Positions 1-31,800 of a stretch of DNA of 43,035 bases are shown one piece after another (the stretch's first letter is position 1; the number at the start of each line of letters is the position of its first letter). The notes beneath the pieces are model-generated. The model was not told the DNA's origin and ran no database searches. It saw nothing but the letters and a program-made list of their open reading frames with translations. The stretch comes from Paraglomus brasilianum (Eukaryota). Location: NCBI GenBank assembly GCA_910592345.1, contig CAJVPI010000201.1, forward strand, positions 1 through 43,035, in the 5' to 3' direction. The position numbers were made by a program, and so were the translations under genes.

Positions 1-699
1 GTTTATGCAGGGTAAATCATGTTTATTTACAATTAGGGACGAGAGTTAGAAACTCATTTACAGCTCTGATAATATTTTCAGCTGTAAGAAAAGGTCGTTT
101 TTATAACTAATTTCTAACTACTATTATTAGTGTTTCGAGTAAAAAAGTGTCGGAGGCACAGCCACGGAGGGAACGTCTTTGTATATGGACACAGCATGAT
201 TGAACGATTAAAAGACGTGTTCGGTTATATTAATATTTAATACTGATCATAAAGAAATGTAGACGTATTGTATTCCAATGTTGCTATTACGATTACTATT
301 ATTAGGTAAACAGCCTTGCGAAGACTGAAGTGTTAGATCTGTGTAGTAGAGAACACGAATGAAATACTCTTCCCAACATTAGCGTGTTCAATAATGACAC
401 TTTATTAGAGTGGTTAAGATACTCCACCTTCAAATAAAGATCCTCCTTGAACTAAGAGAAGAAGACAAAGCAAGGTTACGCAATATGAATTTCAAATAAC
501 CGAGGGCCTGATTGATAACAAAATTTTAAGTAATGAACAGATGTCCTGCATCTACTAATGTCTTGTTGGCGTTGGTCTGTAATAACCTTTGGTTGAAACT
601 AGAGCTAGACGTGGCATCGATGTTATTTATTTATACAGTATTATTTGCTTTTCTTGACAACCCAAAAGACTCAACTGACAGAATTTTGAAAAGGGCAAT

Positions 700-777
700 A
701 AGCAATGTTAGTTAGCGTGGTTTTCAAGCAATGTTAGTTAGCGTGATTTTCAAGCAATGTTAGTTTGCATGCTTTTA
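700..777. repeat. 26-bp tandem repeat, 3 copies
   Basis: AAGCAATGTTAGTTAGCGTGGTTTTC (700-725), AAGCAATGTTAGTTAGCGTGATTTTC (726-751) and a degenerate third copy (752-777); no spacers. Confidence 0.9.
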
Positions 778-1033
778 AACAAGCATGTTTACTACAAATA
801 GAGTTTTTCAAGCTTTCAGAACGGCTTGATAATACTACAAGCAACTCATTATAAGAAACTTTGAAGAAAGATTTTCTCTGACTTGAATCAGTTTCATATT
901 AATTGCGTTTGTTCTTTAAACAAATTATTCGTTATAAGAGGGTATTCTGACGACTTTCTTATGTGTATAATGAGTTTATTTGTAATATCAATATATTTGT
1001 AGTATTAAATTTTTAGTTCATGTAAAACATATG

Positions 1034-1359
1034 AAAAGTTTTTCTTTTCAAAAATTTCTCCTGCTCTTGTGTACTATGCGAAGTGCAATAATTTTTGAAG
1101 CTAATTGATTATGCTTTTCGAAAAGAATAACAATAAAAATTTATAAGTTATTGTTATAAGTTAATAGCTCGAAGTGTGAGTATACGTGTTATACATATAT
1201 AATCATATATTTTCATATCGTGATTTAAAGACAGCTGCTTCAACTTGCTACAGCTTAGTAGTGATAACTTATAAAATTTTATTGTTATTTTTTTCGAACA
1301 GCTAATCAATTAGCTTCACTTCGCATGAGCAGGAGAGATTTTTGAAAAGAAAGACTTTT
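1034..1359. mobile_element. Foldback/MITE-like element with about 100-bp imperfect inverted arms
   Basis: 1034-1151 is the reverse complement of 1264-1359 apart from a few mismatches and two small insertions in the left arm; non-coding AT-rich spacer; no clear TSD. Confidence 0.65.
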
Positions 1360-2177
1360 ACTATTAAAACTTCGTGTTACCCGGTCATTTATTACAGCAA
1401 AACTTCACTAGCGAATTATCATTTTTCTCCGGGCTTTGCTTGATGGAGCCTTGATCTCTCCGGAGATCATGCAGGAAATAGTAGTAATGCCTACTATTGA
1501 TATGTTACAATCCATCCGTCTCATTAAATTTATTAGAGTTCTGGTATTTCTTCCGATAAACTGCTCTAATCGGTCAGGATTTTTTTGACGTTCGTCTTTT
1601 CACGTTTCTCTATATCCATATTTCAATTGAGCACTATTAACTGGCTAGTCCGTAACTAAAGAAATGGCTGAGCTGTACTGCTTGGTATGTTTGAACCGCC
1701 AAAAATTTTCATCTAATTTCAGAATTACGAGGTTTGTAGAGACCACGATTTTTCATGTTGTATCACGCGTTTATTTTGTGTATCTAAATAATAAGTAAAA
1801 TGAACCATATTTATTATAAGCTTTTATCTGTAATTAGAATGGTAAGCATCCATGTGTGTCATTATCTATGGTACAATAAATTGTCACCAAAAATAGATGC
1901 ATTAGAATTAGGTGGTCAAAGAAAATGGTTGAATGTATCTGTAGACAAAGTGATCGTATGAACGAAATACAGTAATCGCTTTGATAATGTAGCAAATTTA
2001 AAATAATGCATTCTCTGATTATGGCTTTCTATTTGGCGCTTTGTAGTACGGCAGCTCTGCAAATCCAACCAATAAAAACCCAACAAGACCTAAAACCTTC
2101 TTATTCTCAATCCCGCGACTAAATCGCGTATCTTCTATCGACCAACACGATTACTACCATATTCATATTAGGCTGAT

Positions 2178-5100
2178 ATGACTTCCACTAACATCAATAT
2201 ATACCAATTCCTCAAGAAAGGAAAAGAAGCCTTTAAAGCTGAAAATTATGGCACGGCAACCCAGCTACTGACAAATGTTATATGCATACCAGAACTGAGT
2301 TCACAACACTTTGAGGTATGTGACTATTTAGCACACACTCCAACTTTTGCACGTCTTCCTAGATTCAAATTAATGCTTTCAACTAGGCGAATGATTACCT
2401 TGGCAGGGCATATTGGAAATTAGGAAAACTCACTTCTGCAGCGGAGGCTTTTGAACGGTTAGCCAACGTTTTCTAATAACATAATTATACTTAGTAATAC
2501 TTATCGCACTCTGTCATCAACTACTCATCCAGTCTATTTTTTTCACTCGAACAGAAATAGAGCAACCGGAGAAGTAACACCAGAGCGCTCCTGTGACGGT
2601 AAACTCTAACGCACCAAGCGACTTAGGTCATTCAGTTTACTCAGTCTTTTTCAACTCATGTAAGAAACTTACGATCCAGTACGTCGTTCAATTATAAGTC
2701 GCCGAGATATACCTACAATTAGTACGTGAATCAAAGACAGAGGAGAAGATATTACATTATGCAACCTTGACATTGTATTGGCTAAAAAGGTATCTATTCT
2801 ACTTGTTCGCTTATATTGTTTTATTGCTCATATACTATACTAATAAAGGCGACTCAATTCATTTATTTGAAACGGTATCAGATCTCGGAGCAAATCCAGT
2901 ACCAAATACAGTACCGTATTACGTCAGCGTAAGACCGGGCCGTTGTATAGTGAACGTGGTGTCAAACTACTACGTGGCCTATTTGATATTTTGGTTAAAC
3001 GCGCGGAGGGACAACCTAGGCAACGGGGCTGCCTTAAACGTCGAAATGGAGAATCGTCCGGTAAGTGCCTTGTTGTATTTAAAAAATCTATTGGTCATCG
3101 ACAGGCGAATTCAAATATATATGCGCTGTTCACAGGAAAGCCAGTAGAGTTGATCGACGAGCAGTTTGTAAAAGAGTTGTTTGCTGCTAAGGAGACCTTG
3201 GTTGACCCGCATCTCCACAAGTTGCTCGCCAGATCTCTATTGCGAAAGAAAGAAATTCGAAGGTAGGCCAGATTTCTCAGGACCATGAATATAGATTTAC
3301 GTGCCTGATCTCAATATTGTATCTGTTCGATTTTCTGCAAGTGTTGCAGATCATGCTCTAGACAGTCGCTATCACTTGGCCGATGACTTGGAATGGAATA
3401 CTTTTATATGCGAGAATATCGACTTATTGGCATCATCATATCCACGGGAGGAATGGGATAACTTCTGTTCTATCGAGAAACTGTACATGTTTGCGCTTGA
3501 CAATTGTGTGAGATTGACACTAGATTGCGGGTGAGTAACACAATATAGTATTGTCGCTCTATATATGCTTGCATAGAAAATAACCGTAAGAGGTTGCCAT
3601 TATCAATTATGAAAGATGTCGTGAAGAGTGCGAAAAGATATTGAAGCAATATGGGAAAGTCTCTTCACGAAGTAAACATCTCCCAGAGCAGAACGAAGTA
3701 CATCAAGTGAGTGTCAACTTATTTGCTAGCAGAATTATTCTCGCAATTGTTAACTGTCTGTCCGCATACCATGATATTATATCTGTGCTATTGCAGGAAA
3801 TGCAAGCAAGATACAACCGGCACAAGGCCTATTTTAGGATAAAGTTCGGGGACTCGAGCGAATATCAAACCCCACTTTCTCTTCTTCCCACAACCAGAAC
3901 GCATGTGTCCTTTGCGTTTGAAAGACTCAAACGTGCTCTGTTTTTGGGCATGCCGTTCACACAATTGCAAAACTTAACCGATAATTGGAGCTACGTGGAC
4001 TACTTCATATGTCAACGAATCAGCGATTCTTTCCAACTGTTAACTACCCTCATATTGTGTTTCGATTTCGATTGGCTTAGTAAGCCGGATGTAGAGTGTG
4101 CAGCAATAATGGTGAATGATGATCATGCGACAAGGGAAATAGTGTTTCCAAATCACAAGAACCTTCTTAATCACTTGACCAAAGATGACTATGGAAATCA
4201 AGATCGAAAAGAATTGGCCCAGAAAATGGATTCTGTCACGAAAATGTTAAAGCAGATTGACAAGATTACATTGTGTTCTCCAAATGACTTGAATAGGTAG
4301 GTTCATATCAATTGGTATTATCTATTTCATGTGTTTGTCGTGAATGCAGAATAACCGGTATTATTTTATTAAGATTTTTATCTGTCATTTCGTGGTATAT
4401 TGACTCGGGAAAACAATTTATGGAACTTCTCAAGTATTGGCTCCCCAATTTGGCAAGCACTGCTCCAGAGGTAAATCAAACAGCTATTCTGATCGCATAC
4501 TTACAATGAATCCATTCACTTACGTTTGACCGTTCACTCGAAAGCGAAAATCCAGAGTCCTCCCCAAATTTAAGAATGATCTTGTGCAATCCGACCAATC
4601 TTCTTCACGAGCGTCTTCTCGAACATCAGATAGTTGGCAACCGACACCTCCGCCAATCGTACCAAAAAAACTGGTAATAGCGGAAGAGGCAACATTGATG
4701 GACATTGAAACGTTCCTTATGATACTTCTCATTCAAAGACAAGAAGTGTGTGTCACACGCTTAGAAGCCACTAGTCTGGGTCAAATCTTGTATTTGGCAG
4801 AAAAGTCGTGCTGGAAGCCAAGTGCAAGTCACCAACGCTTTTGGAATACCGTCATTGCTAAATACGGAAGAGTATGGACGCTTTCATCAAATTGGTTATA
4901 TAAATCTTTTTCGTACAAACTTTTTTACACGTCTGTTAATTAACAGGATGATCCAGAGAGATATGTATATACAACCGATTTGTTTGCCGAAGATGACTTC
5001 AATCAAGCCATAGCTGAGATTCGTGGAGACATCAGATACGTGGATTTCGACCAATCAGATGAAAAGAGCAATAATATTATTGACAATCAACGAGACCTTT

Positions 5101-5698
5101 ATTTGTTGCTATCATATTTGTTTAAAGTGAGTTTTTAACCGTGGTCCTACTTTTGTCACGTAAAGTTGCACTTATCACGCCTCTATTTGTTAGGGCTTGC
5201 AGAGTTGGTATACAAGTAGACGTGTAGAGGCTCTCCATTGTCTCACAGTATTTCATTATTGGGATCGATTGTTAACATACGACAAGAGCTCGTGTAAGAG
5301 AGGGCAGGAACCATCAAAACAGTTTTTCATCTTGGACGAAACTGTCGCGGAGGATGCTTATCGAAGGTAATCAATCGATAATGACATCTTATTTGGCTGC
5401 ATGTTAATTAACATTCGTTTGTCTTTCAAGGTTTATACCTGGCTATGAGAAATTGTCGTCAGCTCATGGACTTGAGCACTTTGCGAAAACCTTTTACACA
5501 GATGAGAAATGGAGCAAAGTAGTACAGGAAGTATATGCCGAAGAAGGCAATCAACCAATTCATGGTTTGTCAGATGAATTAAGTTCCCAGCCGACAGAAG
5601 AATCTATAGAGGATTTGGCATCATATGCAGTCGAACCATGCCCTAGTGAACATGCCAGGCTCTCCGATTTGTCCATTTTAGCCAATGCCAGCGAATAA
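2178..5698 (+). CDS. TPR/alpha-solenoid protein resembling the Nup358/RanBP2 N-terminal domain (14 exons, about 824 aa)
   Basis: Hand-spliced exons 2178-2315, 2387-2457, 2555-2598, 2699-2789, 2882-3060, 3136-3262, 3342-3530, 3616-3706, 3797-4296, 4374-4470, 4545-4871, 4947-5126, 5194-5366, 5431-5698 sum to 2475 nt in one open frame. N-terminal TPR-like helices (KGKEAFKAENYGTA, ANDYLGRAYWKLGKLTSAAEAFER). Collinear motifs YWLKR, LEWN, LTL, EMQ, CQRIS, MDIETFL, QRFWNTV and HYW match the recalled RanBP2 NTD. Confidence 0.75.
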
Positions 5699-5923
5699 GG
5701 TTTAAAGATGAGAGGTAGCAAATAATTTAGATGAAATATGATGAATAGAGTTCTCAGGATAATCACGAAACATTGAATTCAATGTGTAATTTGAGAATTT
5801 GTTCTTGTTGAATTGTATTTTTACTTTGTAGTACTATTCAAGATAAATAAAATATTATCCCCGAATTACAAGATTTTTTCACCATCAACACATCATGTTT
5901 CAAACTGTATTAGCGAGTCATTC

Positions 5924-7537
<1,614 letters not shown>

Positions 7538-8932
7538 TTTGACTGTAGTTTGTTTGATAGGTTATCAGGGAAACAGTAAATTGGGGCTGTTGTGACTTTT
7601 GACATTTAAACGGAGGTGATTTATTTATACTAGAAAGAAAGTTGATAAATTGTCACGCAACATTCCGAGGCATTCCATTAGTCTTGTTACACAAATAATC
7701 TCCTGATATGGTTAACGAATTTGATTCCATCTCAAGATCAAATATATTGTATATGACAAATAAAATACCGTACACTGATCTTCCCCAGCATCAGACAACT
7801 ATGGACTGTGGAAAAGAAAGAAACGCAAATACGTACACAGCGTTCGCAGCGCATGAAACAATATCAATTGATCTTTCCGAAATTCCCCTGCGAGGATTTG
7901 TACTCGTATACCGATACTTGCACCAAACCCTTTTTGTAAAGATCGTCGCTTAGCGTGGAAATATTACTCGGATGAACAGTTTTTTGAAATTTTGATAGAA
8001 GCTTGCAGGATATTTGATTAGATTTCAACCGATAATCAAAAGCATCCCGTATTGTCGCTCTTTATAGAGTTGCTCTATTACTATGGCTTTCTGGTATCGT
8101 CCGCTTGAGACAATGTATTACTCAGTATCACGTCCCCTGCCTTGATTTTTGTTGCACCACTCGTTATTTCAAGTACCGCAACGTTAAGACGCAAATCGAA
8201 ACATCAGTGTGTTCCTACCCAGAAAAGAGTGGTTCACTGACATGTTCGTATAGATTTTTCATTGAGATGACTGATTAGAAGGTTGTGCATTATTCAACGT
8301 CAAGTGAATGAAAGAATACAACTGTTTGGCCGAGATCTACAACATATCTTCGGTCGAATCCCAAGATACGCAGCAAAGAAAAGCTGACATCTCGTACAGT
8401 ATTTTATCGAATTGCGTTTCATAAACATCAAAACATCAAAAGTTTGTCTGCAGCTGAGTGCCAAATTTTGGATGGCTTAATTTCTGTTAGTAATTGACCT
8501 AAAGTAGATTACAATGGAAAATAATATGATGCTTGCTCATCTAATAACTCTAGCTCAAATTTAATGTCTCAGAGTCCACTTCTTCTATCCACTGTTTGTC
8601 CAACATGCTGCATATTGATGAATATGGATATCTATTTGGGGGGGTTTTTCGCAATCGGTCTGACACATTGCACATAGCAATTTTCTGTGCATCAAAAGAG
8701 AAACATACATTCACAAAGGACTTTGTAATTACAATATTTTACTTGGGTAGCTTAAGCGTAATAGTGATAGTTTTTTCCCTTCTTCAACTGACGATACATT
8801 AGCAACAATAAGAGCACGGAAATCACTTCAATGTTGGCTTTGTACCGTTTAATTGTTGTACATCTCAATTGTTCATGATTTACCAAAATATCATTATCAA
8901 TCCCTAGTAGTAACGTCATAACTTCCTTTCGT

Positions 8933-10155
8933 TCAGCCCTTCTTCTCTGTATCTTCGTGTGCCTCTTCAGTAACTTGTCTTTCCATCTCCTTGACAAGCA
9001 CATTAGCAACTGTGGCTACTTTCTCACCGATCAAACCCTTCTCTCCCTTATCATTCTCAACAGCTTTTAATGCTATCTTTTCCTCACCCCTCGCTTGTTT
9101 TAGCATTCTCTCCCCCACATCAAGTTCCTCGTACTCCCGTAGTGTTACCCTCATTCCAATGCCACTTGGAGCATTATCGATGATATAGTACAACCATCTC
9201 TCAACCACATCTCGGTTTGCATCTTTCAATTGAAGCAATCTCTTGTGTGTCTTGCGTTCAAAGTTCTCTTGGGTTTTTTTATGAATAAATGGACCGCGAG
9301 GAACGGTCCATCGGGTGGTTTTTGTAGGAAGGGGGACAGGTCCCGAGCATGGAATCCTGAGAGCCCCAGCAGCACGTCGACAAAAGTCAACATAAAAGTC
9401 CATATGAGATGGAACATAACTCCGAAAGTGCAGATCGCAAACGACAACATTGTGGGTCGGAAGATATTGCTCGGGTTCTATGATTTTATAATAAGCAGGG
9501 AGAGATAATGCGGAGAGAGAGAAAAGGTTAGCATAGTTGACATTGTGGAAGACGCTACGACGTTATAAGATCAGTAGATATTGAAAAGTGAAAAATCACA
9601 ACCATATAACCCCGATCATATTAATTGCCTCTAATTTATTTCTATCACATAGTGTTTCTCGATTTTGCATAAAGTAAAGTAAACCTAACCCTTGAGGTAT
9701 ATAACATCCTCTGCTGTTTGTTTATTGTCTATTGAGGCGCTGTTAGCGTCTTTTGATAATGGTGGTAATTGGGAACTGGAATCTGGTGTACGTGTGGAAG
9801 AAAAGTCGGGTGACGACCGATCAATGGATTGAGATCTGCGATATATATAATAGAAATATAAAAGATGACAAGTACCAGTGTGACTATGAGCATCCCATGT
9901 GCGCAATTCTACGAATTAACAAGTTTTCGTGTATAGAATGTAACGTACGTGTATCGCCGCGAAAGTACGTTAAATGTACGTGCTGAGAGAGAATTGTAAA
10001 GCGGTACACATTGCGCTTCGGCCTGAAGAAAAATTAATCACGATAGTAGAAGATTTTAGGGCTTGGTCATCGTAACAGTTAATCTCTCGAAAAGTCTCAT
10101 ACTGTCTTACGCATGATAATAGTAATCTTCCGAGGTTATTCATTCTCATCAGCAT
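8933..10155 (-). CDS. RSM10: Mitochondrial ribosomal protein uS10m (4 exons, about 269 aa)
   Basis: S10 motif GPVPLPTKTTRWTVPRGPFIHKKTQENFERKTHKRLL. Exons 10111-10155, 9949-10022, 9690-9835, 8933-9477 are in frame and give a presequence-like N terminus ending LSRRY|TS. Confidence 0.9.
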
Positions 10156-18533: not shown

Positions 18534-20137
18534 GCAAATATATTATAGAGAACGGAGTGAATGGATAGAATTATAGAAGGGCAGGAAGTGTTGATGAATT
18601 GAATGGCCCCGGCTGTTAAAGGGAACATCGGATTATTGTAATTCCACCGATTAGCTACAAATCTAGCTACTTTTTCTTTTCTTTTTATTCATAATTGATG
18701 GACTTTTTTGTAAAAAGATTTTGAGCTTCCTTCCATTTTATTTTACCTTTTTAAAATTTAAATCAACTAAAGACATTTACCAGTTAGGTATAAAATGGAA
18801 TGGAGAGAAATTATCATCACTATTATCCTGATCTATAGTAGAGACGTTTTTGTTGATGGTGTAGTGGAACGAGAATTAAGTTGTACCGGTGGTTTTTTCT
18901 TGATATGGTGTATACTGTCCAACACTCATATTTTACTATTTGTATTATATTCTTATGGACCCCATTTATTTCACCTTTTCGCACAGTTCTTAATTACCTT
19001 TTACTTTTTCCAATCTATAAGACTATATTTTACTATTCGGACTTTCTCTCCCCCCCCCCTTTCGTAGGATAAGCAGCATTTCTGCTCATTTTCAACAGCA
19101 ATCAATCAGACATTATGCTATGCTTATTTTAATATTGCCTTGATAATCGAGTAGCCACTTTTGATCCCCTTTTCTTCATCTTTTTTTTTTTTCAGAACAA
19201 AGCCAGGAGAATGGACAGGTTGGTTAGCCTGTAAAACAATAAAGTATACAAATTCTATGCATAAGAAATGTAAATAAACTAGTGTTTTTCTTGAAATATC
19301 GCAATCACATGGTTGTCCTTGTTGGCTGACAGGTTCCATGGTCGAGGGACGCACAGAATGCCAGCGAACATGCAAGTTAAGAAGCCTGGTTTATAGTTTT
19401 ACGTGAAACCGTTGTACTCTATTTATTCGTATTATTGTAAACCACCCGTCGACTATTTATTATTATAATTATAGCATTAGCTTGTGTAAACTACGATATA
19501 ACTGGTTGTCAATAACAGTTATGACATTTAAAATTATTTATAGTTGGGTGAATTGCCATATTACAATATTACAATGTAAACTATTATTATGTTATTTTGG
19601 CTTTTTCGATCGCCTGCCATTATTAAGCAGCATAATAGTCATAGTACATGTCCGGACAGCAACAGACACAGGATGCTTACCATCTCTATTAGTACAATAC
19701 TTCGTCGCTACATATGTTCCTTAACGTGTGATAAAATATTATTAATATTAAGTACGTAACGAGTTTTATGAAAATCCTTGCTTCTGCATACAAGGGTTGC
19801 GCATATACATTTGTCCCGCATTCATATTCGGTAGGGCAATTAGCCGATGTTACATATTAATATTCTTTCAACTTTCTCATAACCATGATTGGTCGAGAAA
19901 ATAATGACGTTTAGTCGAAAATGATGACGTTGATTACTAAAACAATCTACAATATTCTTCTGGCTTGCATCATCAAAAGCACGACAATATTAAGATTACA
20001 TCACCGAGCGTACGTTGATTACACGTCAACAGGTCATCCAAACATAAATATAGGGTCGATGGAGGAAGAACGAAATCTGAAATCAGGGAAAATAACAACT
20101 CAATCAACAATTACCTACAAACGTCAATTTAATCAAA

Positions 20138-21751
20138 ATGACTATTCACTTCGAAGCAACCTACAACAAACAAACCAAGCATGTCATCGCCGAGTCCACC
20201 ACCTGGAGCGACCTCTCTTCAAAGCTCCGCATGCTATTCTCGATTCCATCCTCGAAAATGATAATCGTTTCGTACATCAATAAGGATGGGGATGCAATTG
20301 CATTGTCGAATGATTCGGATCTACGTGAACTTGCTTCACATGAAGGATCGACGGTTAAATTGACATTATCAACGGGTAGTGAGAAAGATGATAGTAGTGG
20401 GGATGAGAGCTGGATAGTTGAAGAAAGTAAATTTGGCGAAAATCCATTTTCCGATACGGAAGGTTCCGACAAGGCACGTTTGAATGCCAAATCTTCTATT
20501 GAACATACTGAATTCCCACCACTCACAAGCCCACCAAGTTATCGCTCAGTAACTCTAACGGACGAAAAGGACGAAGACGAACTCGACTCAACCACTCGCT
20601 CTGTCAACAAGGGTAAAGAAAAGGATGACTCACCGACACGTACCTTGTCGGATAATCCACATCCAGAGAACACGTCACGGCCACCATTTATGGATCTTGT
20701 AGAGCAATTCCAAAATATACTTGACCAATTTAAAGATGTTTTCGACCGAAATCCACAACTAATCGACAGTGTAAATGTTGTAATGGATCGTATCTTAGCT
20801 GGATCATTTGTAGATGTACAGGATTATACTGATTGGTTGGAGTCGTTCAGGAATTTTGGATTTGGAAAATTCGGGAAAGAGAAAGAGAATGCTTCTAGTA
20901 ATTGTGGATTTGGAAAATTCGGGAAAGAGAAAGAGAATGCTTCTAGTAATTGTTGCAATGATCAACGCAGTTGCCAAAATAGGTGTGGGAAAAATGCGAA
21001 TTGTAAACGAACGGCTAACCCAGAAAACGACAACTCGGAATCCTATGATAGGATCTACATAACGTTCCGCAGTCATCCACATCCAATGTTCGCCCCTAGA
21101 CCCGTGTTCGGTCATCCACTACTATATGCTCCATGGCATCATCGGACACCATTCAATGCATTCTATAGCAACCCATTCTTCACACCATTCTCATTTTTTG
21201 ATGATGACGACGCCGCATTTCGATATTTTACACCCTACACATACGCTCCATTTTATACTCCGAGGAGTATTCCAACTATATATGTTACAAGACCTCCTAC
21301 ATCCCCGGCGGACGAGAAACGAGCAGAGAGTTCAACCAAAGGCTCCGAGTCTGCAAAGACATGTAATTGGAAGAACGGGAGAAATAGATGTAACGGGGCA
21401 AGATTTGGGGCACCAATTGCGTCAGAAAGAAGTTGTAGGTATGCGTGCCGTCAGCGATCTGCATACAGCAACGGCAGTGGTAGCAATGCTGATGCCAATT
21501 TCAATGTGTCCGAGAAGATCACACTACTGAATGCAATGGGATTCGAAGACAATGTTCAGAATGAGGATTTACTAAAACGTTATAATGGGAATGTCGATCG
21601 TGTGGTTGAAGTGCTGTTGCAGCGTAAACAAGAAACGCTGAAGCAAGAGCAACAGAAGGAACAACCACGTCCGGATGGCGAAGAGAAAACTGAGGTCGAT
21701 GGTGATAACTTTAGCGAGGCTGAATCTAAACCATATAGTCTGAAAATTTAA
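20138..21751 (+). CDS. Intronless PB1 + UBA protein (p62/SQSTM1- or NBR1-like ubiquitin adaptor), 537 aa
   Basis: N-terminal PB1 with OPCA-like VSYINKDGDAIALSNDSDL; C-terminal UBA LNAMGFEDNVQNEDLLKRYNGNVDRVVEVL; no ZZ or FW domain recognisable. Confidence 0.8.
   Translation: MTIHFEATYNKQTKHVIAESTTWSDLSSKLRMLFSIPSSKMIIVSYINKDGDAIALSNDSDLRELASHEGSTVKLTLSTGSEKDDSSGDESWIVEESKFGENPFSDTEGSDKARLNAKSSIEHTEFPPLTSPPSYRSVTLTDEKDEDELDSTTRSVNKGKEKDDSPTRTLSDNPHPENTSRPPFMDLVEQFQNILDQFKDVFDRNPQLIDSVNVVMDRILAGSFVDVQDYTDWLESFRNFGFGKFGKEKENASSNCGFGKFGKEKENASSNCCNDQRSCQNRCGKNANCKRTANPENDNSESYDRIYITFRSHPHPMFAPRPVFGHPLLYAPWHHRTPFNAFYSNPFFTPFSFFDDDDAAFRYFTPYTYAPFYTPRSIPTIYVTRPPTSPADEKRAESSTKGSESAKTCNWKNGRNRCNGARFGAPIASERSCRYACRQRSAYSNGSGSNADANFNVSEKITLLNAMGFEDNVQNEDLLKRYNGNVDRVVEVLLQRKQETLKQEQQKEQPRPDGEEKTEVDGDNFSEAESKPYSLKI
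20858..20953 (+). repeat. Perfect 48-nt in-frame tandem duplication (GFGKFGKEKENASSNC x2)
   Basis: GGATTTGGAAAATTCGGGAAAGAGAAAGAGAATGCTTCTAGTAATTGT at 20858-20905 and 20906-20953. Confidence 0.95.
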
Positions 21752-22602
21752 ATAAGTTTATTCTGTATGTTTGTTAATATTTATACGATTAAAGATAGCT
21801 AAATGTTTCTTTAAGTGATATCTATAATTAATAAAAACACAATATTAGTTGTTGCAATATTTAGAATTTTATCCACTATGTGTTTGTTCCGAAACGTGTG
21901 AACACAATATAATGTTTGCATTCTGTTAAAGGCTTTTCCCGTACTCTATGATAATTTAATGTCAACGACTAGTAATCTGGTTGCGCGCGTCGTTAAAAAT
22001 TCACCAGGACTTGCAATTTTTGAAAGATGGTTTTATTAAATACAACAACCCTTCTGTTTACAAGTATTTGTTAAGATAAAGTGTTGACCATTCCCTGTTC
22101 CTCCAGAGGATACTAGCTATCGTCAATCTTACAAGTCAAACGAGAAGATGACACTACCACTCTTATCTGTTGTCTCGATTATTCTTAGTAAATCAAGTGT
22201 TTAATTTGTGTGTACTAATTTTAGCAAATTAAAATTTGTTTAACCGAGACAAAATACCAAAGCAATGAAAATACGACTAATCGACTTGGCACTGCCACTT
22301 CTCCGACTTTTGTCATAAACTAGATTTTAACGTAGGCAAGCCGAGAAATGCTCTACGAGTTTTAAAGAGCGAACAAAAGACCTAACTGTTGTCCAAATTA
22401 CTATGTTTTGTTGCTATTACTATATTGATCGAAACATTACCAACGCAAATTCAAATAAAAAAATATGCGGCATTTTTAAATTGATGCACATTTTTAATTC
22501 TTGGCATATATTCTTTGTATTAGTTACGATCGTTACTATATTAAGAGTAACGACAATCTTCAGCCAATTCTCGCCTCTTTCGCATTTTCTCTTTGCTTCA
22601 CA

Positions 22603-23674
22603 ATGCGAGCTTACCACCACGACGGTGACAACACAGCTGACCAACGCCTTCCGCACGAGTATACACCCTTTTCTCCAGTAACACCAGAAGAATTAGGTCG
22701 ACTCGGAGTGCTCTACTGGAGAATTGAAAAACGAGACGATTGGCTGGAGCAGATTAATGCTGTTGCTCAAGAAAGATCATACAGAAATCGTGATGTTGTG
22801 AGTGTAAATGAAGATACAGGAAAAAAAAGATAAAGAATAAATGTTGATACTTTATATTTTTGGTAACAATTATTGTAGATTAAAGTCTCCAAAGAAGCAA
22901 TGGGAGATGTGTATGAGAGCAAGTTGAAGACGTTCTACGAAGAGTATGTATGCTTATAGAATATTGAATCAGTAATAGCAGATAAACCGATGGTTAATCT
23001 TATTATTATGTTTGACTAAACCAGGCACCTCCATGAAGATGAAGAGATTCGCTATATTCTTGACGGATCAGGATACTTTGACGTGAGAGGTTGTAATTTA
23101 CAAACTATAGATAATTGCACAAGACATGAATTAAAACACACTTGACTTGAAAACACAACTTTACATTGTGCTCTTCTTCTTTGTCTTTTAGATGAACAAG
23201 ACCGATGGATTCGCATCGCTCTCACGACAGGCGACCTACTTGTCCTGGTGAGTATGCGTTTACGTTTATGACTGAATTCTGTGGAGAAATTGATAAACCC
23301 TAGTTAACCCTTCGTGCCGAATAATAGCCGGCAGGAATCTATCACCGCTTTACGCTTGATTCCAACAATTACATAGAAGCTATGAGTAAGTGAGAATGCA
23401 AAGTAACTGAGTTTATTTACATTATATCTTTATTTACTCATTCTATTTGTCTGTGTTGCTGCTCAATTTACTGTCGCTACGTATGTTAATTCTACAGGGC
23501 TTTTTAAAGACGAGCCGAAATGGACACCTATTAATCGTAAGACTTTGCTATGCAATCAAGTAATACGCATCATCTTAGTATCGTAGATCCTAATATTACC
23601 GTTCGATTATAGGCCCGGCCGACTCCAATCCATTCAGATTGTCCTATCTTCAATCGGTTAGAACCACTGTATAG
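22603..23674 (+). CDS. ADI1: Acireductone dioxygenase (methionine salvage), 7 exons
   Basis: [77 protein letters not shown]. Confidence 0.95.
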
Positions 23675-23939: not shown

Positions 23940-24392
23940 CTATTTTCCTCCTTTCTTTTTACTCTTCTGGTTTGCTTTGGCCATCTTTGCGGCCTCCTTA
24001 GCGCTCAATTCTGGCAACTTCTCATCTGATTCCAAAAATTCCAATCCAAAATCCGTCTCACCGTATCGTGAACTGAATTTCGATAATTGACCACTTTCAT
24101 CGAATAAACCCACACCATCAGAGTATTCATTCCATAGCGGATGGTTTCGCGTATCCTTTACCAGCTTGACCTGTGGTTTCGGAGACGTCGTGTGATAGAC
24201 ATAGGACGAGCCGTCGGTTAGGAATACGCGTTGGACGAATTTGGGAGGAATTGGCTTGGATTGTTTGGTGCTATAATAGAGAGGGCGGGGTAAAGTTAAA
24301 GATAAAGATAAAGATAAAGGAGCAGGATAAGTGTGAGGGGAGAGAGAATGGCATGCTTTGTATGGACGGAGAATGGCACGGAATGATTGCAT
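23940..24392 (-). CDS. MRPL36: Mitochondrial ribosomal protein bL31m (MrpL36-like), intronless
   Basis: Presequence-like N terminus; QRVFLTDGSSY..TTSP...LVKDTRNHPLWN signature of fungal bL31m. Confidence 0.85.
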   Translation of the reverse strand: MQSFRAILRPYKACHSLSPHTYPAPLSLSLSLTLPRPLYYSTKQSKPIPPKFVQRVFLTDGSSYVYHTTSPKPQVKLVKDTRNHPLWNEYSDGVGLFDESGQLSKFSSRYGETDFGLEFLESDEKLPELSAKEAAKMAKANQKSKKKGGK

Positions 24393-24519
24393 GGTTAAGT
24401 TATCGTTCTTATTGAAATCTACAAATTCCTAACTATTTGCACGACAATATGATTGGTGGATCAAAGTTTGATTATTTCCTGCTCATTTTCACATACTTGT
24501 ACTGTTTAGTCTCTCAAGC
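24393..24519. promoter_or_regulatory. Bidirectional promoter between bL31m and NDUFS3 (127 bp between start codons)
   Basis: Divergent ATGs at 24392 (-) and 24520 (+); ATTGG (reverse CCAAT) near 24452. Confidence 0.6.
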
Positions 24520-25659
24520 ATGATATTGAATAGACTAGCATCAAAGTTTAATGGAGTGGCCAGACTGTATAATCCAAAAATACTCAATAGTAAGATATTG
24601 TTGGTTTTACAGAGTATTCCGCGACTTACATGCTTAAGCTGCAAAACACATTAATTCCAACTTTATATCATTAACTCGTTACTATTCCACCCCACCTATA
24701 CATAGTAGCCCCGTATCTTACACGGACAGTTCCGCTTAGAACACCTGTCCTATTGAATAAGAGATCATTCTCTTCAACTTCAATTGCCTACCAAGGTATT
24801 CGTGCTCCAATTACCTCAATTTTAACCATGATAATCGATATCTAATGATCCCACCGTCCCTATATTCTTCGCAGCTGCAGAATCTTCATCATCACCCACC
24901 CAAAACCCAGAAACAGGCTCCGAATCTCTGCATGAATATGGCAAATATCTGCTGTCAATGCTCCCCAAATACATTCAACAGTACTCGGTCTATAAAGACG
25001 AACTAACAATCTACATAGCCCCATCCTCTCTCATCCCCGTAACAACGTTCTTACGCGATCACACCGGATGTCAATTTAAACAAGTTCAAGACATTTGTGG
25101 AGCTGATTATCCCACTCGCTCGAATCGCTTCGAAGTAGTTTATAACATGTTGAGCGTTCATTACAACGCTCGGATCAGAGTAAAAACCTATGCTGATGAA
25201 GTGACACCTGTGCCGTCTATTGTTAGTCTATTTGAGGGTGCAAATTGGTTCGAGCGAGAGGCATACGATATGTACGGAATATTCTTTGTTGATCATCCGG
25301 ACTTGAGAAGAATTTTGACAGACTATGGCTTCGACGGACATCCATTGAGGAAGGATTTCCCTCTGACAGGATATGTAGAAGTTAGATATGACGAGGAGAA
25401 GAAGAGAGTTGTGGCTGAGCCATTGGAGATGACGCAGGCGTTTAGGAATTTTGAAGGGGCGGCTTCGCCTTGGGAACAGACTGGTAAGTTGATAATTAAA
25501 CATAATTCACATGTATCGATCGATCTTTACCCTTTTGTCTTGTTGATAATCTAACATTACTCTTCAAATTTTGCAGGTCCTGGACAGGATAATCGTCCTG
25601 AATCGTTTAAACTGGAAAATCTTCTGCCCAAGCCAGAGACAAAGAAAGAAAGCAAATAA
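24520..25659 (+). CDS. NDUFS3: NADH:ubiquinone oxidoreductase 30 kDa subunit (NDUFS3/Nad9 family), 4 exons
   Basis: [65 protein letters not shown]; spliced presequence exons from ATG 24520. Confidence 0.96.
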
Positions 25660-25926: not shown

Positions 25927-27945
25927 TTATAACGACAAGATTCGATAGTAATCTTCTTCGATACTAATATATGTCTCGGCGAGTTTTTCTATTCTTTCCG
26001 ACTTACTCATTTGGCAGAGTACGTCCTATTGAAGAAAATTGAGAGAATATAATTGACATATGTACACAGACATGTTTGGACGACAAAATAATAAACAGGG
26101 GACAGACCTTGTTATGATTATATAATCGTTTTTTCACTTGTATTCGATATGCCTTGTAAGCGTTAACATCCGATTTATTCAGTCTCTTCAACATTAACAT
26201 TTCTATGCATCTATGCATCTGTCGCTATTAAAATAATTTCATCAAAAGAATGTTACTTATTGTACCAATTACTTATCACATTCGTCATTGAACTAACCTG
26301 ATCCAGCTTGCATTTTCGGCGCACTTCCTCTACTTTGCTTTTATCTAATGGTATGGGGAGACCTTCGACTATTTTATTTTCCACGAGATACATTAAATCA
26401 TTTTTATCTCGGAGATCGCTAAAAGCATCATTGGGATCTTCGACTGGTGAATGTATTTACCACATTAGCTGACAAACGTATTATGCAACATTAGAAATTA
26501 CAACTACTCGTTACCAGTCAGTTCTTTGATCCATGGATTAGCCAATAAATTCCTATAAAGAGCCTGATACAGTCTGCCTATTGACAACAAATTACAATCA
26601 AAGGTAAACGCATATAATAATTGTTCTATAACATATATAACTTACTTCCATGATCTTGTTTCTGATAAGGAGGTAGAATCAGAAATTGACTACAAACATT
26701 AAATAAAAATGACGCAAACCACGATAAATACGTTAACTCTGCAATGGCATCCAAAAGATATGCCCACTAAAGTTGCTTCCCATACCTTATCCTCAATCTT
26801 GTAGAATACGAAAAGTTCGACGTTTCATTTAATTCATTGGATATGTCTTTGATTTCCGATAACGGTTTAGAACCTTCACATTTCTCGTAAAAGAAGAATG
26901 CATACATCGTACAATAGCCTATTATATTATATATATTTGAATCGCCTGTTGACTTTTTCTGGAAGCTGGAATATCACGGCGATTAGTTTGTACCTGCGAA
27001 AAGTTAAGCAAGCGATTTGAAATGTGTTGTCTTATTAGACTATATACTCACACAAGAGCAATCTCCCATTTCTCATCATCCTCGTTAATATAGCGTGCAC
27101 CATCAATATATAAAAGCACAAATAGCTGAAGTCTACTGTGATATTCTTTGAAACCAGGCGTGTTAAAATTGGCCTACATGACGATAAGAATAACCAGTTA
27201 AATTTCTATCACGATCAAAGTAAATGTTCTCCATGTACAAATACAAACCTTGTAAATCTCGTAAACCGTACTGTCGTCATCCGAAAGGCGGTATTCGCTT
27301 ATCTTCTCGCCCATTGGAACAAACGCATGCGTATCTTTCTGCACTCTTTGAAGAAATGTGTCGTAGTTTGTCATAAAGCCTATCACACATATTACAGAAA
27401 GGTGAACCATTTTGTCGGTATTAGCCTTTTCGGTTTCCCCATTGATAATTGCTTGTCAATTTGACTATTTCACACTTATCACTTGTGGTTTATTCCTTCT
27501 TTCTCCTTTTCATCCTCTAAATCGTTCGACTCGTTTACCTTCGGGTATGTATTCTCGTATGATTCCAATAACATCAGTTGGCTTGGCACCGGGCAAATGA
27601 TCAGAAATCTTTTCGTCATAACTTACATCCAAATATGTTACCAGACTTCCCGCAGCGTAGTAGAGCTTTATCTTTAAGTTTTTGTACCCGTATATCTGTT
27701 GCAATGGACCGAAAAGACTATAAGTGAATTGGGGCAACAATTGGTGGTATTCGCCTTCGGGATGTTCGTATGGATCGGATGTGTGTGCACAGACTTGGAA
27801 GCAGAAGGGAGTATGAAAAAATGGCTCAAAACAAACAACGCAATCAATTGCTAAAATAAAACTATGAGTGGTTACCAAGACGTAGTTTTAAAACGTCGTT
27901 GGCGTTGCAGACCCATTCTTCTTGGTTCACAGTCGTTATAGTCAT
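25927..27945 (-). CDS. HAT1: Histone acetyltransferase type B catalytic subunit (multi-exon)
   Basis: EEWVCNANDVLKL; FTYSLFG..QIYGYKNLKIKLYY; LFVLLYIDGARYINEDDEKWE; RLRISQFLILPPYQKQDHG; LTVEDPNDAFSDLRDKND; YRIQVKKRLY. Confidence 0.93.
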
Positions 27946-28863: not shown

Positions 28864-31800
28864 TCATGGCGAAGGTCCAGGAGGTGTCGGCGGTGGTGTA
28901 AGACTCAACTGACTCCTAATGTGGTCAATCAATCCCGATCCATTGCTCATTGCTTGACTATTCTGGCTGCTATTTGGTGACATCGGTACCAGATTTCTTG
29001 TTGCAGCAGACTTGTGTACCTCATCCAAAGCCTTTATCATATCATCATACTCTTCTAAACGAGATGGAACGCGAACATTGTCATTGTTGTTCTCTGGAAG
29101 GCGACTCCATCTATCATCAACGCTTACATCAACGTTCTTCTGAGTTTCATCCCATTGGGACTTGAGGGCGTCTAACTCATTTGCTATCGAATCAAGAGCA
29201 CCAGAGTTTCGCGGGCTATTGTCGCGAATGTTTACTTCGATACCGCGATACGTGTCGACAGCATGCTCCATCTGATCGAGAAGGATTCCAATTTTATGAT
29301 TCAATTCAACGTTTTCCTTTTCAAGTGTTTCTGTCTTGGTACGATATTCACCAATCTCGCGTTCAAGCAAAGTGCGATGCTCATCCCACTGCTGGCGTTC
29401 CATCGAGTGTCTGGTAGTGTCTTGCAACCCATTTTCTTTTCGAGGTGATCCGTTCAAAGCGTTGTCAAGTTCCCGGTTCAAATGTTCATTCAGATTCAAT
29501 GTCTCTTCCAATTCTGTTCGAGTTGCTTGGAGCACTTCTTGCGCCCGTTTTAGTTCAGCTCCAAGATTATCTAATTGCTGAGTGGTTTGAGCATGAAGAT
29601 TCTTGAGAGTCTCGTATTCTTTCCGTAGTACTTCATATTCTTGATCCATCATTGCTTTATCGTTATTTGAGCGCTCTAATTGTACTTGAATATCAGTCAG
29701 TTGTTGCTGCAGAGCTTGCTTTTCTTTATCAAAGTCTTTTCGCTGTTCTTCAAGACGTGCATTAGCATATTCTTGTATCCGAGATTCACGAGCGCCTCTT
29801 CTGACTGTCATTTGATTTTCTGCATCTGCCAATTTCTCCTCAAGGTCCTCAGAACGTTCTTGCATTTGTAATAACTTTTCATTTATCCTTCCATTTTCTG
29901 TTTGACTCCTCGTCAATTCTTCCTTCATTCTTCGCAACATCTTCTCGCTACCTTTGACGTAATGAACCGCGGTTTGATAGTCCGATTCTACTTGCTGCAG
30001 ACGCTGCTTTACTTCGGTTAATTCACGCCTAGAAGCATCAGCATCTGCAACAGCACCCGCATCCGAATCCTTGCTGCTATCCGTGAGTGTATTTGAAGTA
30101 TTTTTATCATTTGCTCGTTCAAGCTGTGATTCAAGGTTTTTTATGCGTCCTTCTGCCTCTTTCGCAATCTGAATTGCTTCCTCACACTTTGCACGAGCTT
30201 CCGAAAGCTGATTTGACGTTTCTGCATGGACGAATCCGAGTTCTGCATATCGAGCTTCTAATTCTTTATACCGTATTGCCATACTGCTCGTTCCGCCATT
30301 GTCAAGAATGCCCTTCTCAGACATGACATCTCTCATCATTCCTATTTTAACGTCGGCCTCCTCAAGCACTTGCGTTTTTGTTTCTAGCTCTCGTTCCTTT
30401 TCACGTATTTTATCTTTCAATCGTGCGATTTCATCCGTAGCTTCGGCCAGCCTTCTTTGTAGGGAAGCATTTTCGGACCGAGACTTGATATTAGTAGCTT
30501 CTAAATGAGAAGTCCTACCCATAGCTTCGGCAAGAGACCTTGAAGCCTCATCGGCTGCAGTCTGACTGTCACTACGAGCAATTTTAAGCTTTTCGACTTC
30601 CTGTTCAAGTTCATTGTATCTACGGGTCAGATCAGAGGTATTGAGGTCATTGGTTCCGGAACGCGACGTATTCAAAAGCTCGGTCATGCTTTCTTGCATT
30701 ACTGCACGAACAGCATCTGCTTCTTTTTGAGCAGTAGCTAATAATCGTTCTAATTCATCAGTTTTTGCATATGCACGATCCAAATCACGCATTTTCACAT
30801 CTAATTCCGCTCTCAGTCCTGCAGCTTCTTTTTCCAAACTAACTATATCTTGACGGTCTTGACGAGCTTGTCTCCATAAAGATTCTGCTTCAGAAGCGCG
30901 CTCATTGGCAGCACCCAAAGCAGTGTTAGCTTTCTCGAGAGCGCGTTGATGTTGATCAAGCGACAATTGTAGTTGAGTTAATTGTCCTTGCGAACCTGAT
31001 GACTTGACACGATGCTGCGCCAATTCAGCGTTAGTTTCCGCCAATCGCGTATTAGCTTGCCTCAGAGAAGTCTCGGCAGCAGTAGCTCTCGAATGCAATG
31101 TAGCCAGTTCGGTTAATACTCGGGCGTGTGATTCTTCCATTTCTTCTGCTCTTGCATTTGCGGCCTTTGCTCGTTCCTCAGCCGATTCTCTTGCTTGTAT
31201 CTCATAACTTGATGATTGTTGGTACTGAATTAATTTAGCTTGAGAGGATTCTTTTTCGGTTAAAGCCTGAGTTAATCGTTTCTCAAGTTCTGCGGCACGT
31301 TGTGATTCAATCTGCGCTAGATCTGTTTCTGACGCGTTCACCAACGCTGTCAATTTGGCTTTGAAATAAGCAGCTTCTTGAAGCGCTGCGGTACGTATAC
31401 GTTCTGACTCTGTGATTTTCAAGGATGCAGTCTGTGCCTGGCTCGCTATTGTTGCTTTGGCTCGACGAAGTTCCTGTTTTACTTTCATCAACGCAACAAT
31501 TAACTTGTATTTATCCGAATTTGGCTCGCCTACATTCAACAATTGTTCTTCAGAATCCTCGGACATGTCGGCATCGCGACTAAAGTCGGGGGAAAAACCA
31601 GCTTTCCGAGCAAAGGCAAGTTCTGTGCGGAACCAGTTTTCTCGTTTTTTCAATAAAGAAATGGCCGCATCTCTTTGTTGCAACTCGCGAAGGAAGCTAT
31701 CTCGTTCTGCATTCGACACAGGGGTGGGAAATTGATCAGCAAGCTTCATAGTTTCCGTCGGGGACATTGGGGAGCGAATGGTCGTTGGACTTCCACTTGA

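What the first reader, a model, noticed from the sequence alone, without database searches (positions are those of the whole stretch)
2178..5698. Stand-alone fungal homolog of the Nup358/RanBP2 N-terminal solenoid, a supposedly metazoan-specific nucleoporin
Seen: a 14-exon gene that splices into about 824 aa with N-terminal TPR-like helices; the ORF track shows it only as fragments. Compared with human RanBP2 residues ~1-700 as I recall them, conserved blocks occur in the same order (this gene vs RanBP2): ANDYLGRAY vs AHRFLGLLY; TLYWLKRS vs AKYWLERA; DPHLHKLL...ADH...LADDLEWNTFI vs DVHVNIRL...VAH...LRSSLEWNSCV; LTLDCGCREECEKILKQY vs LTLSTRDVQESRELLQSF; EMQARYNRH vs EMKGHFYMH; ICQRISDSFQLL vs ACDRLSQSGHML; ATLMDIETFLM vs ICILDLEVFLL; QRFWNTV vs QKSWWDAV; IAEIRG vs INTLRA; VFHYWDRLL vs SVHYWKKVL; EPSKQFF vs EPIDPLF. 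Established: the Nup358 NTD is the alpha-solenoid that clamps Y-complexes in the metazoan cytoplasmic ring, and Nup358 is absent from budding yeast and widely called metazoan-specific. Inference: this lineage keeps an ancestral opisthokont Nup358 scaffold without RanBD, zinc-finger, FG, SUMO-E3 or cyclophilin modules (the gene ends in a short acidic tail 225 bp before the convergent enolase stop). That would point to an undescribed NPC cytoplasmic-ring architecture and to later domain accretion in animals.
Basis: partly seen in the sequence, partly recalled or inferred. Interest (0 to 1): 0.92.

Follow-up and report, generated by a model that had tools for sequence, protein, structure and literature searches.

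The report
Fungal Nup358 anchor-domain nuclear pore protein
A spliced gene of a root-symbiotic fungus encodes a relative of the pore-anchoring domain of the animal nuclear-pore protein Nup358, without its transport and enzyme modules; it likely clamps onto the outer ring of the nuclear pore, and it contradicts the published view that fungi have no Nup358.

Summary
Fourteen GT-AG exons give an open 824-aa frame. RNA-like contigs join 9 of 13 introns exactly. The product is 91% identical to a Paraglomus occultum protein.

Homology to the Nup358/RanBP2 N-terminal domain (NTD) is strong. A fungi-only profile ranks human RanBP2 NTD first in the PDB (E 2e-19; TPR-less fragment 9.5e-16). A confident model of the P. 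occultum orthologue (pTM 0.84) superposes on human residues 145-667 at Z 21.6, 4.3 A over 450 residues.

Named relatives come from Glomeromycota, Endogonales and 16 chytrids and follow the species tree. None of 33 scanned has Ran-binding, zinc-finger, E3 or cyclophilin domains.

One correction: 'metazoan-specific' was already broken by a Dictyostelium Nup358 fitted onto a single Y-ring, so the domain likely predates opisthokonts. I found no paper on a fungal member. This scan reported the same idea earlier in a chytrid (e1-7220403). Pore localisation is inferred, not shown.

The parts
2178..5698 (+). 14-exon gene for an 824-aa Nup358/RanBP2-NTD homologue
2178..2315 (+). exon 1 (aa 1-46).
   Evidence: no upstream exon found by tblastn
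2387..2457 (+). exon 2 (aa 47-69), TPR helix pair; intron 2 (2458-2554) joined in a contig
2555..2598 (+). exon 3; its donor is supported by the orthologue only
2699..2789 (+). exon 4; flanking introns 3 and 4 supported by the orthologue only
2882..3060 (+). exon 5, end of the TPR part; intron 5 joined in a contig
3136..5533 (+). exons 6-13 and the start of exon 14 (about aa 177-770): N-terminal solenoid, wedge and C-terminal solenoid; the orthologue's model superposes on human NUP358 145-667
   Evidence: 7MNJ, Z 21.6, rmsd 4.3 A, 450 residues; introns 6-12 joined in contigs
5534..5698 (+). acidic, low-confidence C-terminal tail (aa 771-824) and stop; no RanBD, zinc finger, FG array, E3 region or cyclophilin
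5924..7540 (-). convergent enolase gene; it bounds the gene 225 bp after its stop

Best explanation
[quoted passage not shown] Shown: the gene model; homology to the TPR/HEAT solenoid, wedge and C-terminal solenoid; a family tree that follows the species tree across Glomeromycota, Endogonales and chytrids; no detectable C-terminal Nup358 modules. Inferred: it would wrap Nup96/Nup107 as the human NTD does, probably about two copies per Y-complex on a single ring as in Dictyostelium. It would add no Ran-binding sites, FG filaments, or SUMO-RanGAP1/Ubc9 docking of its own, so its job would be scaffolding rather than transport-complex disassembly. The domain would be inherited from the common ancestor of animals, fungi and amoebae and lost in the yeasts and moulds in which pores have been studied.
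For: Fungi-only profile of 52 sequences: RanBP2 NTD is the top PDB hit (E 2e-19), and the TPR-less construct 7MNJ scores E 9.5e-16. A profile of 22 chytrid or chytrid-like sequences without Glomeromycota reaches it too (chain 71-490, E 1.7e-9; 7MNJ 6e-8). The model of the 91%-identical orthologue has pLDDT 82.7 and pTM 0.84. Foldseek ranks 1-10 are all Nup358 (E 6e-10 to 3e-8; TM by target 0.62 for 7MNJ). Against 48,161 chains the top three are Nup358 (Z 22.2, 21.6, 17.6), and the next is a short TPR match at Z 14.6. In the second look the top 11 entries are Nup358, including 570 residues at 5.4 A on 7R5K. The depositors call this S-shaped architecture novel (bioRxiv 10.1101/2021.10.26.465790, section 7), and section 9 shows the NTD alone anchoring on NUP96/NUP107. 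A Dictyostelium pore chain of 780 aa is also hit end to end (E 2.9e-4, TM 0.30); I infer from its length that it is that paper's Nup358. A language-model search with the Racocetra homologue ranks a chordate RanBP2-like (RGPD3) cluster first (0.94, 181 features). The tree follows the species tree.
Against: There is no localisation or binding data. Identity to human NTD is only 14-16%. The P. occultum protein alone and the four-sequence TPR-less profile found no RanBP2 in the PDB. Superpositions end at human residue about 660-700, so the end of the human NTD (to 752) has no matched counterpart. The oligomerisation element that human NUP358 needs for pore localisation (PMC13242641) was not identified in this protein's tail. 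Of the human basic residues needed for NUP88/RNA binding, K61, R64 and K500 map to Glu, Asp and Val and only K502 to Arg; R58 falls in an insertion, and K34 and K40 could not be mapped. No reciprocal search from the animal side was possible. The Dictyostelium chain did not reach the top 50 of the VIA-align list.
Confidence: 0.7

Rival explanations
1. It is a true Nup358-NTD homologue that has left the pore and serves as a cytoplasmic or mitotic scaffold in fungi.
For: The basic NUP88/RNA-binding residues are mostly not kept. No oligomerisation element was seen, the end of the NTD is unmatched, and the family evolves fast (median end branch 0.87).
Against: The whole three-part architecture is kept across chytrids and Mucoromycota. 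The amoeba homologue is fitted at the pore. Anchoring uses contacts with NUP96/NUP107, which the NUP88/RNA patch does not test.
Confidence: 0.2
2. It is a pore component that duplicates the cytoplasmic Y-ring, giving early-diverging fungi an animal-like double ring.
For: PMC6006428 describes Nup358 as the dimeriser of cytoplasmic Y-complexes in humans. The abstract of the 2021 preprint says the pentameric bundles depend on the double ring.
Against: Dictyostelium carries two Nup358 copies on a single ring, so having Nup358 does not force duplication.
Confidence: 0.15
3. It is a generic TPR/HEAT solenoid whose resemblance to Nup358 is convergent.
For: Pfam gives only TPR-type hits. The Atlas search with the P. 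occultum protein and the structure alignment of the first, poor model gave only generic TPRs. Identity is about 15%.
Against: The TPR-less human fragment is hit by sequence (E 9.5e-16) and by structure (450 residues, 4.3 A), with motifs in the same order. Unrelated solenoids reach TM 0.12-0.18 by query against 0.39-0.47 for Nup358.
Confidence: 0.03
4. The gene came by horizontal transfer from an animal, or the window is a contaminant or chimera.
For: None of my own; it would only reconcile the gene with statements that Nup358 is absent from fungi.
Against: The gene has 13 short introns among housekeeping genes. Orthologues occur in five Glomeromycota genera, Jimgerdemannia and 16 chytrids, on a tree that follows the species tree. 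The tree held no animal or amoebal row, so it does not test a very old transfer.
Confidence: 0.02

Closest known systems
Human and Xenopus NUP358/RanBP2 N-terminal domain (PDB 7MNL, 7MNJ, 7MNN, 7R5K chain 00, 7TBM, 7TDZ, 7VOP, 7FIK/7FIL)
   Same: The TPR/HEAT solenoid, wedge and C-terminal solenoid come in the same order. Up to 570 residues superpose, and the profile match is E 2e-19.
   Different: About 15% identity. No RanBDs, zinc fingers, FG arrays, SUMO-E3 region or cyclophilin; 824 aa against 3,224. The last part of the human NTD is unmatched, no oligomerisation element was identified, the NUP88/RNA-binding basic residues are mostly changed, and this protein starts about 25-30 residues later than its Glomeromycota relatives.
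Dictyostelium discoideum Nup358 (aa 1-780 modelled; bioRxiv 10.1101/2024.01.17.575985; likely PDB 9HCJ chain 00)
   Same: A non-animal Nup358 NTD, fitted as two copies on a single cytoplasmic Y-ring. End-to-end Foldseek hit.
   Different: It matches the fungal model less well than human does (TM about 0.30; not in the VIA-align top 50). Its full-length domain content was not seen.
Gigaspora margarita KAF0467318/9, named 'E3 SUMO-protein ligase RanBP2-like isoform X2' by its source
   Same: A direct orthologue (about 32% identity). A database name already points to RanBP2.
   Different: The name overstates the function, because no E3 region was detected. I found no paper discussing it.
Primate RGPD proteins (RanBP2-like and GRIP-domain)
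   Same: They share the NTD; an RGPD3-named chordate cluster is the top Atlas hit for the Racocetra homologue.
   Different: They are recent duplicates of RANBP2 fused to a GRIP domain (recalled, not checked here).

Membership tests
Nup358/RanBP2 NTD family | Sequence homology beyond the TPR repeats | tested here: met
   TPR-less 7MNJ hit at E 9.5e-16 and 6e-8 with the chytrid profile. The shallow four-sequence TPR-less profile missed it.
Nup358/RanBP2 NTD family | S-shaped fold of N-terminal solenoid, wedge and C-terminal solenoid | tested here: met
   Model of the 91%-identical orthologue: Z 21.6, rmsd 4.3 A, 450 residues on human 145-667; 570 residues at 5.4 A on 7R5K.
Nup358/RanBP2 NTD family | C-terminal solenoid complete to the equivalent of human residue 752 | tested here: inconclusive
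   Superposed ranges end at human residue 660-700.
Nup358/RanBP2 NTD family | Reciprocal best hit from animal RanBP2 into fungal proteomes | not testable with these tools
   No animal RanBP2 was returned as a usable protein, and no fungal proteome was available.
Nup358/RanBP2 NTD family | Localisation at the cytoplasmic ring and binding to Nup96/Nup107 | not testable with these tools
   Needs experiment.
Nup358/RanBP2 NTD family | Basic surface residues for NUP88 and RNA binding (K34, K40, R58, K61, R64, K500, K502) | tested here: not met
   One of four mappable positions is basic in the orthologue (K502 to Arg). K61, R64 and K500 map to Glu, Asp and Val; three positions could not be mapped.
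Nup358/RanBP2 NTD family | Oligomerisation element after the NTD (human 802-832) | tested here: inconclusive
   The tail is acidic and low-confidence. A short helical tail motif occurs in chytrid and Jimgerdemannia members but not in this protein; it was not compared with the human element.
Full-length metazoan Nup358 (RanBP2 SUMO E3 ligase) | Ran-binding domains, RanBP2 zinc fingers, FG arrays, IR1-M-IR2 E3 region, cyclophilin domain | tested here: not met
   None by Pfam in the orthologue, 4 Glomeromycota homologues or 33 further hits. At most 5 FG dipeptides and no zinc-finger signature in 45 proteins of 450 aa or more. The gene ends 225 bp before enolase.

The most novel reading that the evidence does not exclude
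Early-diverging fungi keep the ancestral form of Nup358: a bare Y-complex clamp, older than the animal-fungus split, onto which animals later added the Ran-binding, zinc-finger, SUMO-ligase and cyclophilin modules. In chytrids and Endogonales a short C-terminal helix is the forerunner of the oligomerisation element. These fungi build a cytoplasmic ring unlike the yeast one, possibly a doubled Y-ring, and loss of this gene marks the switch to the yeast-type pore.
Probability: 0.25. Interest if true: 0.82.

Novelty: new variant of a known kind. Interest (0 to 1): 0.62.

Why it matters
[quoted passage not shown] Yeast and Chaetomium pores are used as the fungal standard. A conserved fungal family of bare NTDs suggests that those models lost a cytoplasmic-ring component. 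It also gives a natural minimal version in which the scaffold role can be studied apart from the Ran, SUMO and FG roles. With a member in Spizellomyces punctatus (SPPG_07134), a chytrid I recall as transformable, the question of whether Nup358 drives doubling of the cytoplasmic Y-ring becomes directly testable. The Dictyostelium precedent lowers the surprise.

Tried and rejected
Single-sequence search of the P. occultum protein against the PDB: 1 irrelevant hit, E 1.3. Four-sequence TPR-less profile against the PDB: 1 irrelevant hit. Word-index searches found only 4 Glomeromycota clusters. The Atlas search with the P. occultum protein gave only generic TPR or hypothetical clusters. The first fold, on a 6-sequence alignment, was poor (pLDDT 46.7). 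Foldseek still ranked Nup358 1-10, but VIA-align listed only short TPR matches; I relied on the 52-sequence model instead.

No upstream exon encoding the missing N-terminal residues was found in window 1-2320.

Absence from Dikarya, Mucorales or Mortierellales is NOT shown. Only 21 of the 72 hits have a name look-up, and none of those was an animal or amoebal Nup358, so the profile's reach is limited. The first tree run did not finish; the tree cited is a quick LG+G4 run with SH-aLRT support only and no outgroup.

No second set of runs was laid, so introns 1, 3, 4 and 13 stay without a direct joint. No whole genome was held, so copy number, and whether other Nup358 modules lie in separate genes, were not checked. 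The tail motif was not compared with the human oligomerisation element. Ciccarelli 2005, the cited source for 'absent in fungi', was not held. The Nup358 row of the table in PMC1257468 has marks whose columns I could not assign. No complex prediction was run.

Full report
Gene model. I read 1-8000 and rebuilt the exon chain from GT-AG sites. Fourteen exons from 2178 to 5698 give 2,475 nt, or 824 aa plus stop, with introns of 64-100 nt. Fourteen public runs hold part of the region; I laid the four best, all from one study and guessed by the tool to be RNA. Their contigs join 9 of the 13 introns (2 and 5-12) at exactly the modelled ends. Introns 1, 3 and 4 show no joint, and intron 13 shows only a 9-base loose end that fits the join. 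Some contigs are unspliced. The closest database protein is Paraglomus occultum CAG8495829.1, 828 aa and flagged partial. It aligns with the spliced product end to end at 90.9% identity, which supports the four unjoined introns and places the window in or next to Paraglomus. Other Glomeromycota homologues carry about 25-30 more N-terminal residues. I found no upstream exon for them, so the true start is slightly uncertain. Enolase ends 225 bp downstream on the other strand, which leaves no room for a simple continuation.

The family. Word-index searches gave four Glomeromycota clusters: Paraglomus, Funneliformis, Racocetra and Gigaspora. The Gigaspora margarita entry is already named 'RanBP2-like' by its source. 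A profile of four sequences without the first TPR pair, run against 1.84 billion representatives, gave 72 hits at E up to 0.001, 37 of them up to 1e-10. I looked up 20 of the longer hits: one Ambispora, one Jimgerdemannia, 16 chytrids (calling those genera chytrids is my own knowledge) and two unnamed. One more, Funneliformis, was known; 51 were not looked up. A quick maximum-likelihood tree of 35 rows puts the window's protein with P. occultum at the base of Glomeromycota (99), Jimgerdemannia as sister (99), and the chytrids on the other side of a branch of support 99. That is the pattern of vertical descent, though the tree has no outgroup.

Link to Nup358 by sequence. The P. occultum protein alone finds nothing in the PDB, nor does the shallow TPR-less profile. 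The four-sequence full-length profile and the Gigaspora protein find RanBP2 as the best natural protein, mainly through the TPR part (E about 1e-8). The 52-sequence profile built only from this family ranks human RanBP2 NTD first (E 2e-19) and the TPR-less crystal construct next (E 9.5e-16). A profile of 22 chytrid or chytrid-like sequences reaches RanBP2 71-490 in one stretch (E 1.7e-9), second only to an engineered consensus TPR protein. Blocks 8-11 were not recovered by HMMER.

Link by structure. With the deep alignment, AlphaFold2 modelled the P. occultum orthologue at pLDDT 82.7 and pTM 0.84. I folded this orthologue, not the window's own product. As I recall, this model version was trained before the full NTD structures were released in 2022, so it could not have copied them. 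Foldseek ranks 1-10 are human or Xenopus Nup358. Among 48,161 representative chains the top three are Nup358, with 7MNJ at Z 21.6, rmsd 4.3 A, 450 residues (model 175-774 on chain 145-667); the next hit is a 132-residue TPR match at Z 14.6. In the second look the top 11 entries are all Nup358 (Z 17.3-22.3). The matched range covers the N-terminal solenoid, wedge and most of the C-terminal solenoid described in bioRxiv 10.1101/2021.10.26.465790 (outline, passages and sections 7 and 9 read). It stops at human residue about 660-700.

Stand-alone architecture. Pfam finds only TPR-type families, in 7 of 33 further hits, and nothing in the other 26. The same holds for the Glomeromycota proteins. None of 45 proteins of 450 aa or more has a RanBP2 zinc-finger signature or more than 5 FG dipeptides; the longest is 1,556 aa, and several are partial models. 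After the solenoid this protein has only a 54-residue acidic tail.

What is already known. [quoted passage not shown] PMC6371224 (passages) calls it vertebrate-specific. PMC2951903 (table passages) marks it in 13 columns and, in its supergroup table, under opisthokonts only. But Foldseek also returned a 780-residue chain of the Dictyostelium pore. The matching preprint (10.1101/2024.01.17.575985; passages and section 7 read, supplement not available) identifies a D. discoideum Nup358 by profile search and fits two copies on a single cytoplasmic Y-ring. So the domain is not animal-specific in print and is likely older than opisthokonts. For fungi, full-text searches for RanBP2 with Glomeromycota, Nup358 with 'early-diverging fungi' and Nup358 with homolog and chytrid returned 0 papers. 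Searches gave listings in which I saw no title on a fungal Nup358; most of those papers I did not open. The library lacks most subscription journals, and supplementary tables of nucleoporin surveys could hold such hits. This scan noted the same thing earlier in a chytrid (e1-7220403). I confirmed chytrid members myself.

Mechanism. Shown: the gene, the homology and the missing modules. Inferred: in humans the NTD is the part that anchors Nup358 by wrapping NUP96 and NUP107 on the Y-complex stalks, and the amoeba homologue is fitted on the cytoplasmic ring. Homologues on both sides of the fungal branch therefore sit at the pore, and the simplest reading is that the fungal protein does too, as a scaffold without transport modules (about 0.7). 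Against this, three of four mappable basic residues used for NUP88 and RNA binding are changed, no oligomerisation element was identified (the human one is required for localisation according to PMC13242641, passages), and the end of the C-terminal solenoid is unmatched. A short helical motif at the far C-terminus occurs in 15 of 46 family rows, from chytrids, Jimgerdemannia and unnamed members, but in no named Glomeromycota protein and not in this one. The pattern was written after seeing some of the sequences and has no shuffle control, so it is a lead only.

Verdict. The feature is real and the homology is about as firm as remote homology gets (my estimate 0.95). It is a new architectural variant of a known family: not a member of full-length RanBP2 E3 ligases, but a member of the Nup358-NTD family on the two features I could test positively. 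Interest is 0.62. It overturns a stated absence in fungi and opens a direct test, but the Dictyostelium precedent removes the claim of a first non-animal Nup358, and function is untested.

Noticed in passing
window 5185-6161: Two contigs spliced at the enolase intron run on over the last one or two exons of this gene without splicing intron 13 (X1 record 5, X3 record 17). This suggests that the enolase 3' UTR overlaps the gene's 3' end in antisense; a contig across two genes does not prove one transcript.
   Followed up: no
C-terminal tails of P0012, P0017, P0018, P0020, P0021, P0026, P0027, P0028, P0036, P0040, P0053, P0055, P0058, P0080, P0081: A short basic, leucine-rich helical motif with a central glutamine, mostly within the last 65 residues and sometimes doubled, in 15 of 46 family rows. 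It is absent from the named Glomeromycota members. It is a candidate oligomerisation or partner-binding element; the pattern is post hoc and has no control.
   Followed up: partly
proteins P0020, P0023, P0036: Three unnamed family members form a supported group (96) between the chytrids and the Jimgerdemannia plus Glomeromycota clade, so the family reaches at least one further lineage.
   Followed up: no
window 2040-2177: The gene appears to lack the first helix found in the other Glomeromycota homologues. An AG lies 6 bases before the ATG, and the P. occultum model is 5'-partial, so a diverged upstream exon is possible.
   Followed up: partly
window 20096-21751 (+): Intronless 551-aa frame with an N-terminal PB1 domain and, by eye, a UBA-like C-terminus; it resembles p62/NBR1-type autophagy receptors (recalled). 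It contains a short internal duplication.
   Followed up: no
window 8933-9562 (-), 22498-22833 (+), 23940-24428 (-), 24835-25554 (+), 27510-27887 (-), 28864-33587 (-): Ordinary neighbours by Pfam: ribosomal S10, acireductone dioxygenase-like, ribosomal L31-like, complex I 30-kDa subunit, Hat1 N-terminus, and a kelch-repeat protein with a long coiled-coil exon.
   Followed up: partly
window 695-765: Three imperfect tandem copies of a roughly 24-base unit in the upstream intergenic DNA, seen by eye.
   Followed up: no
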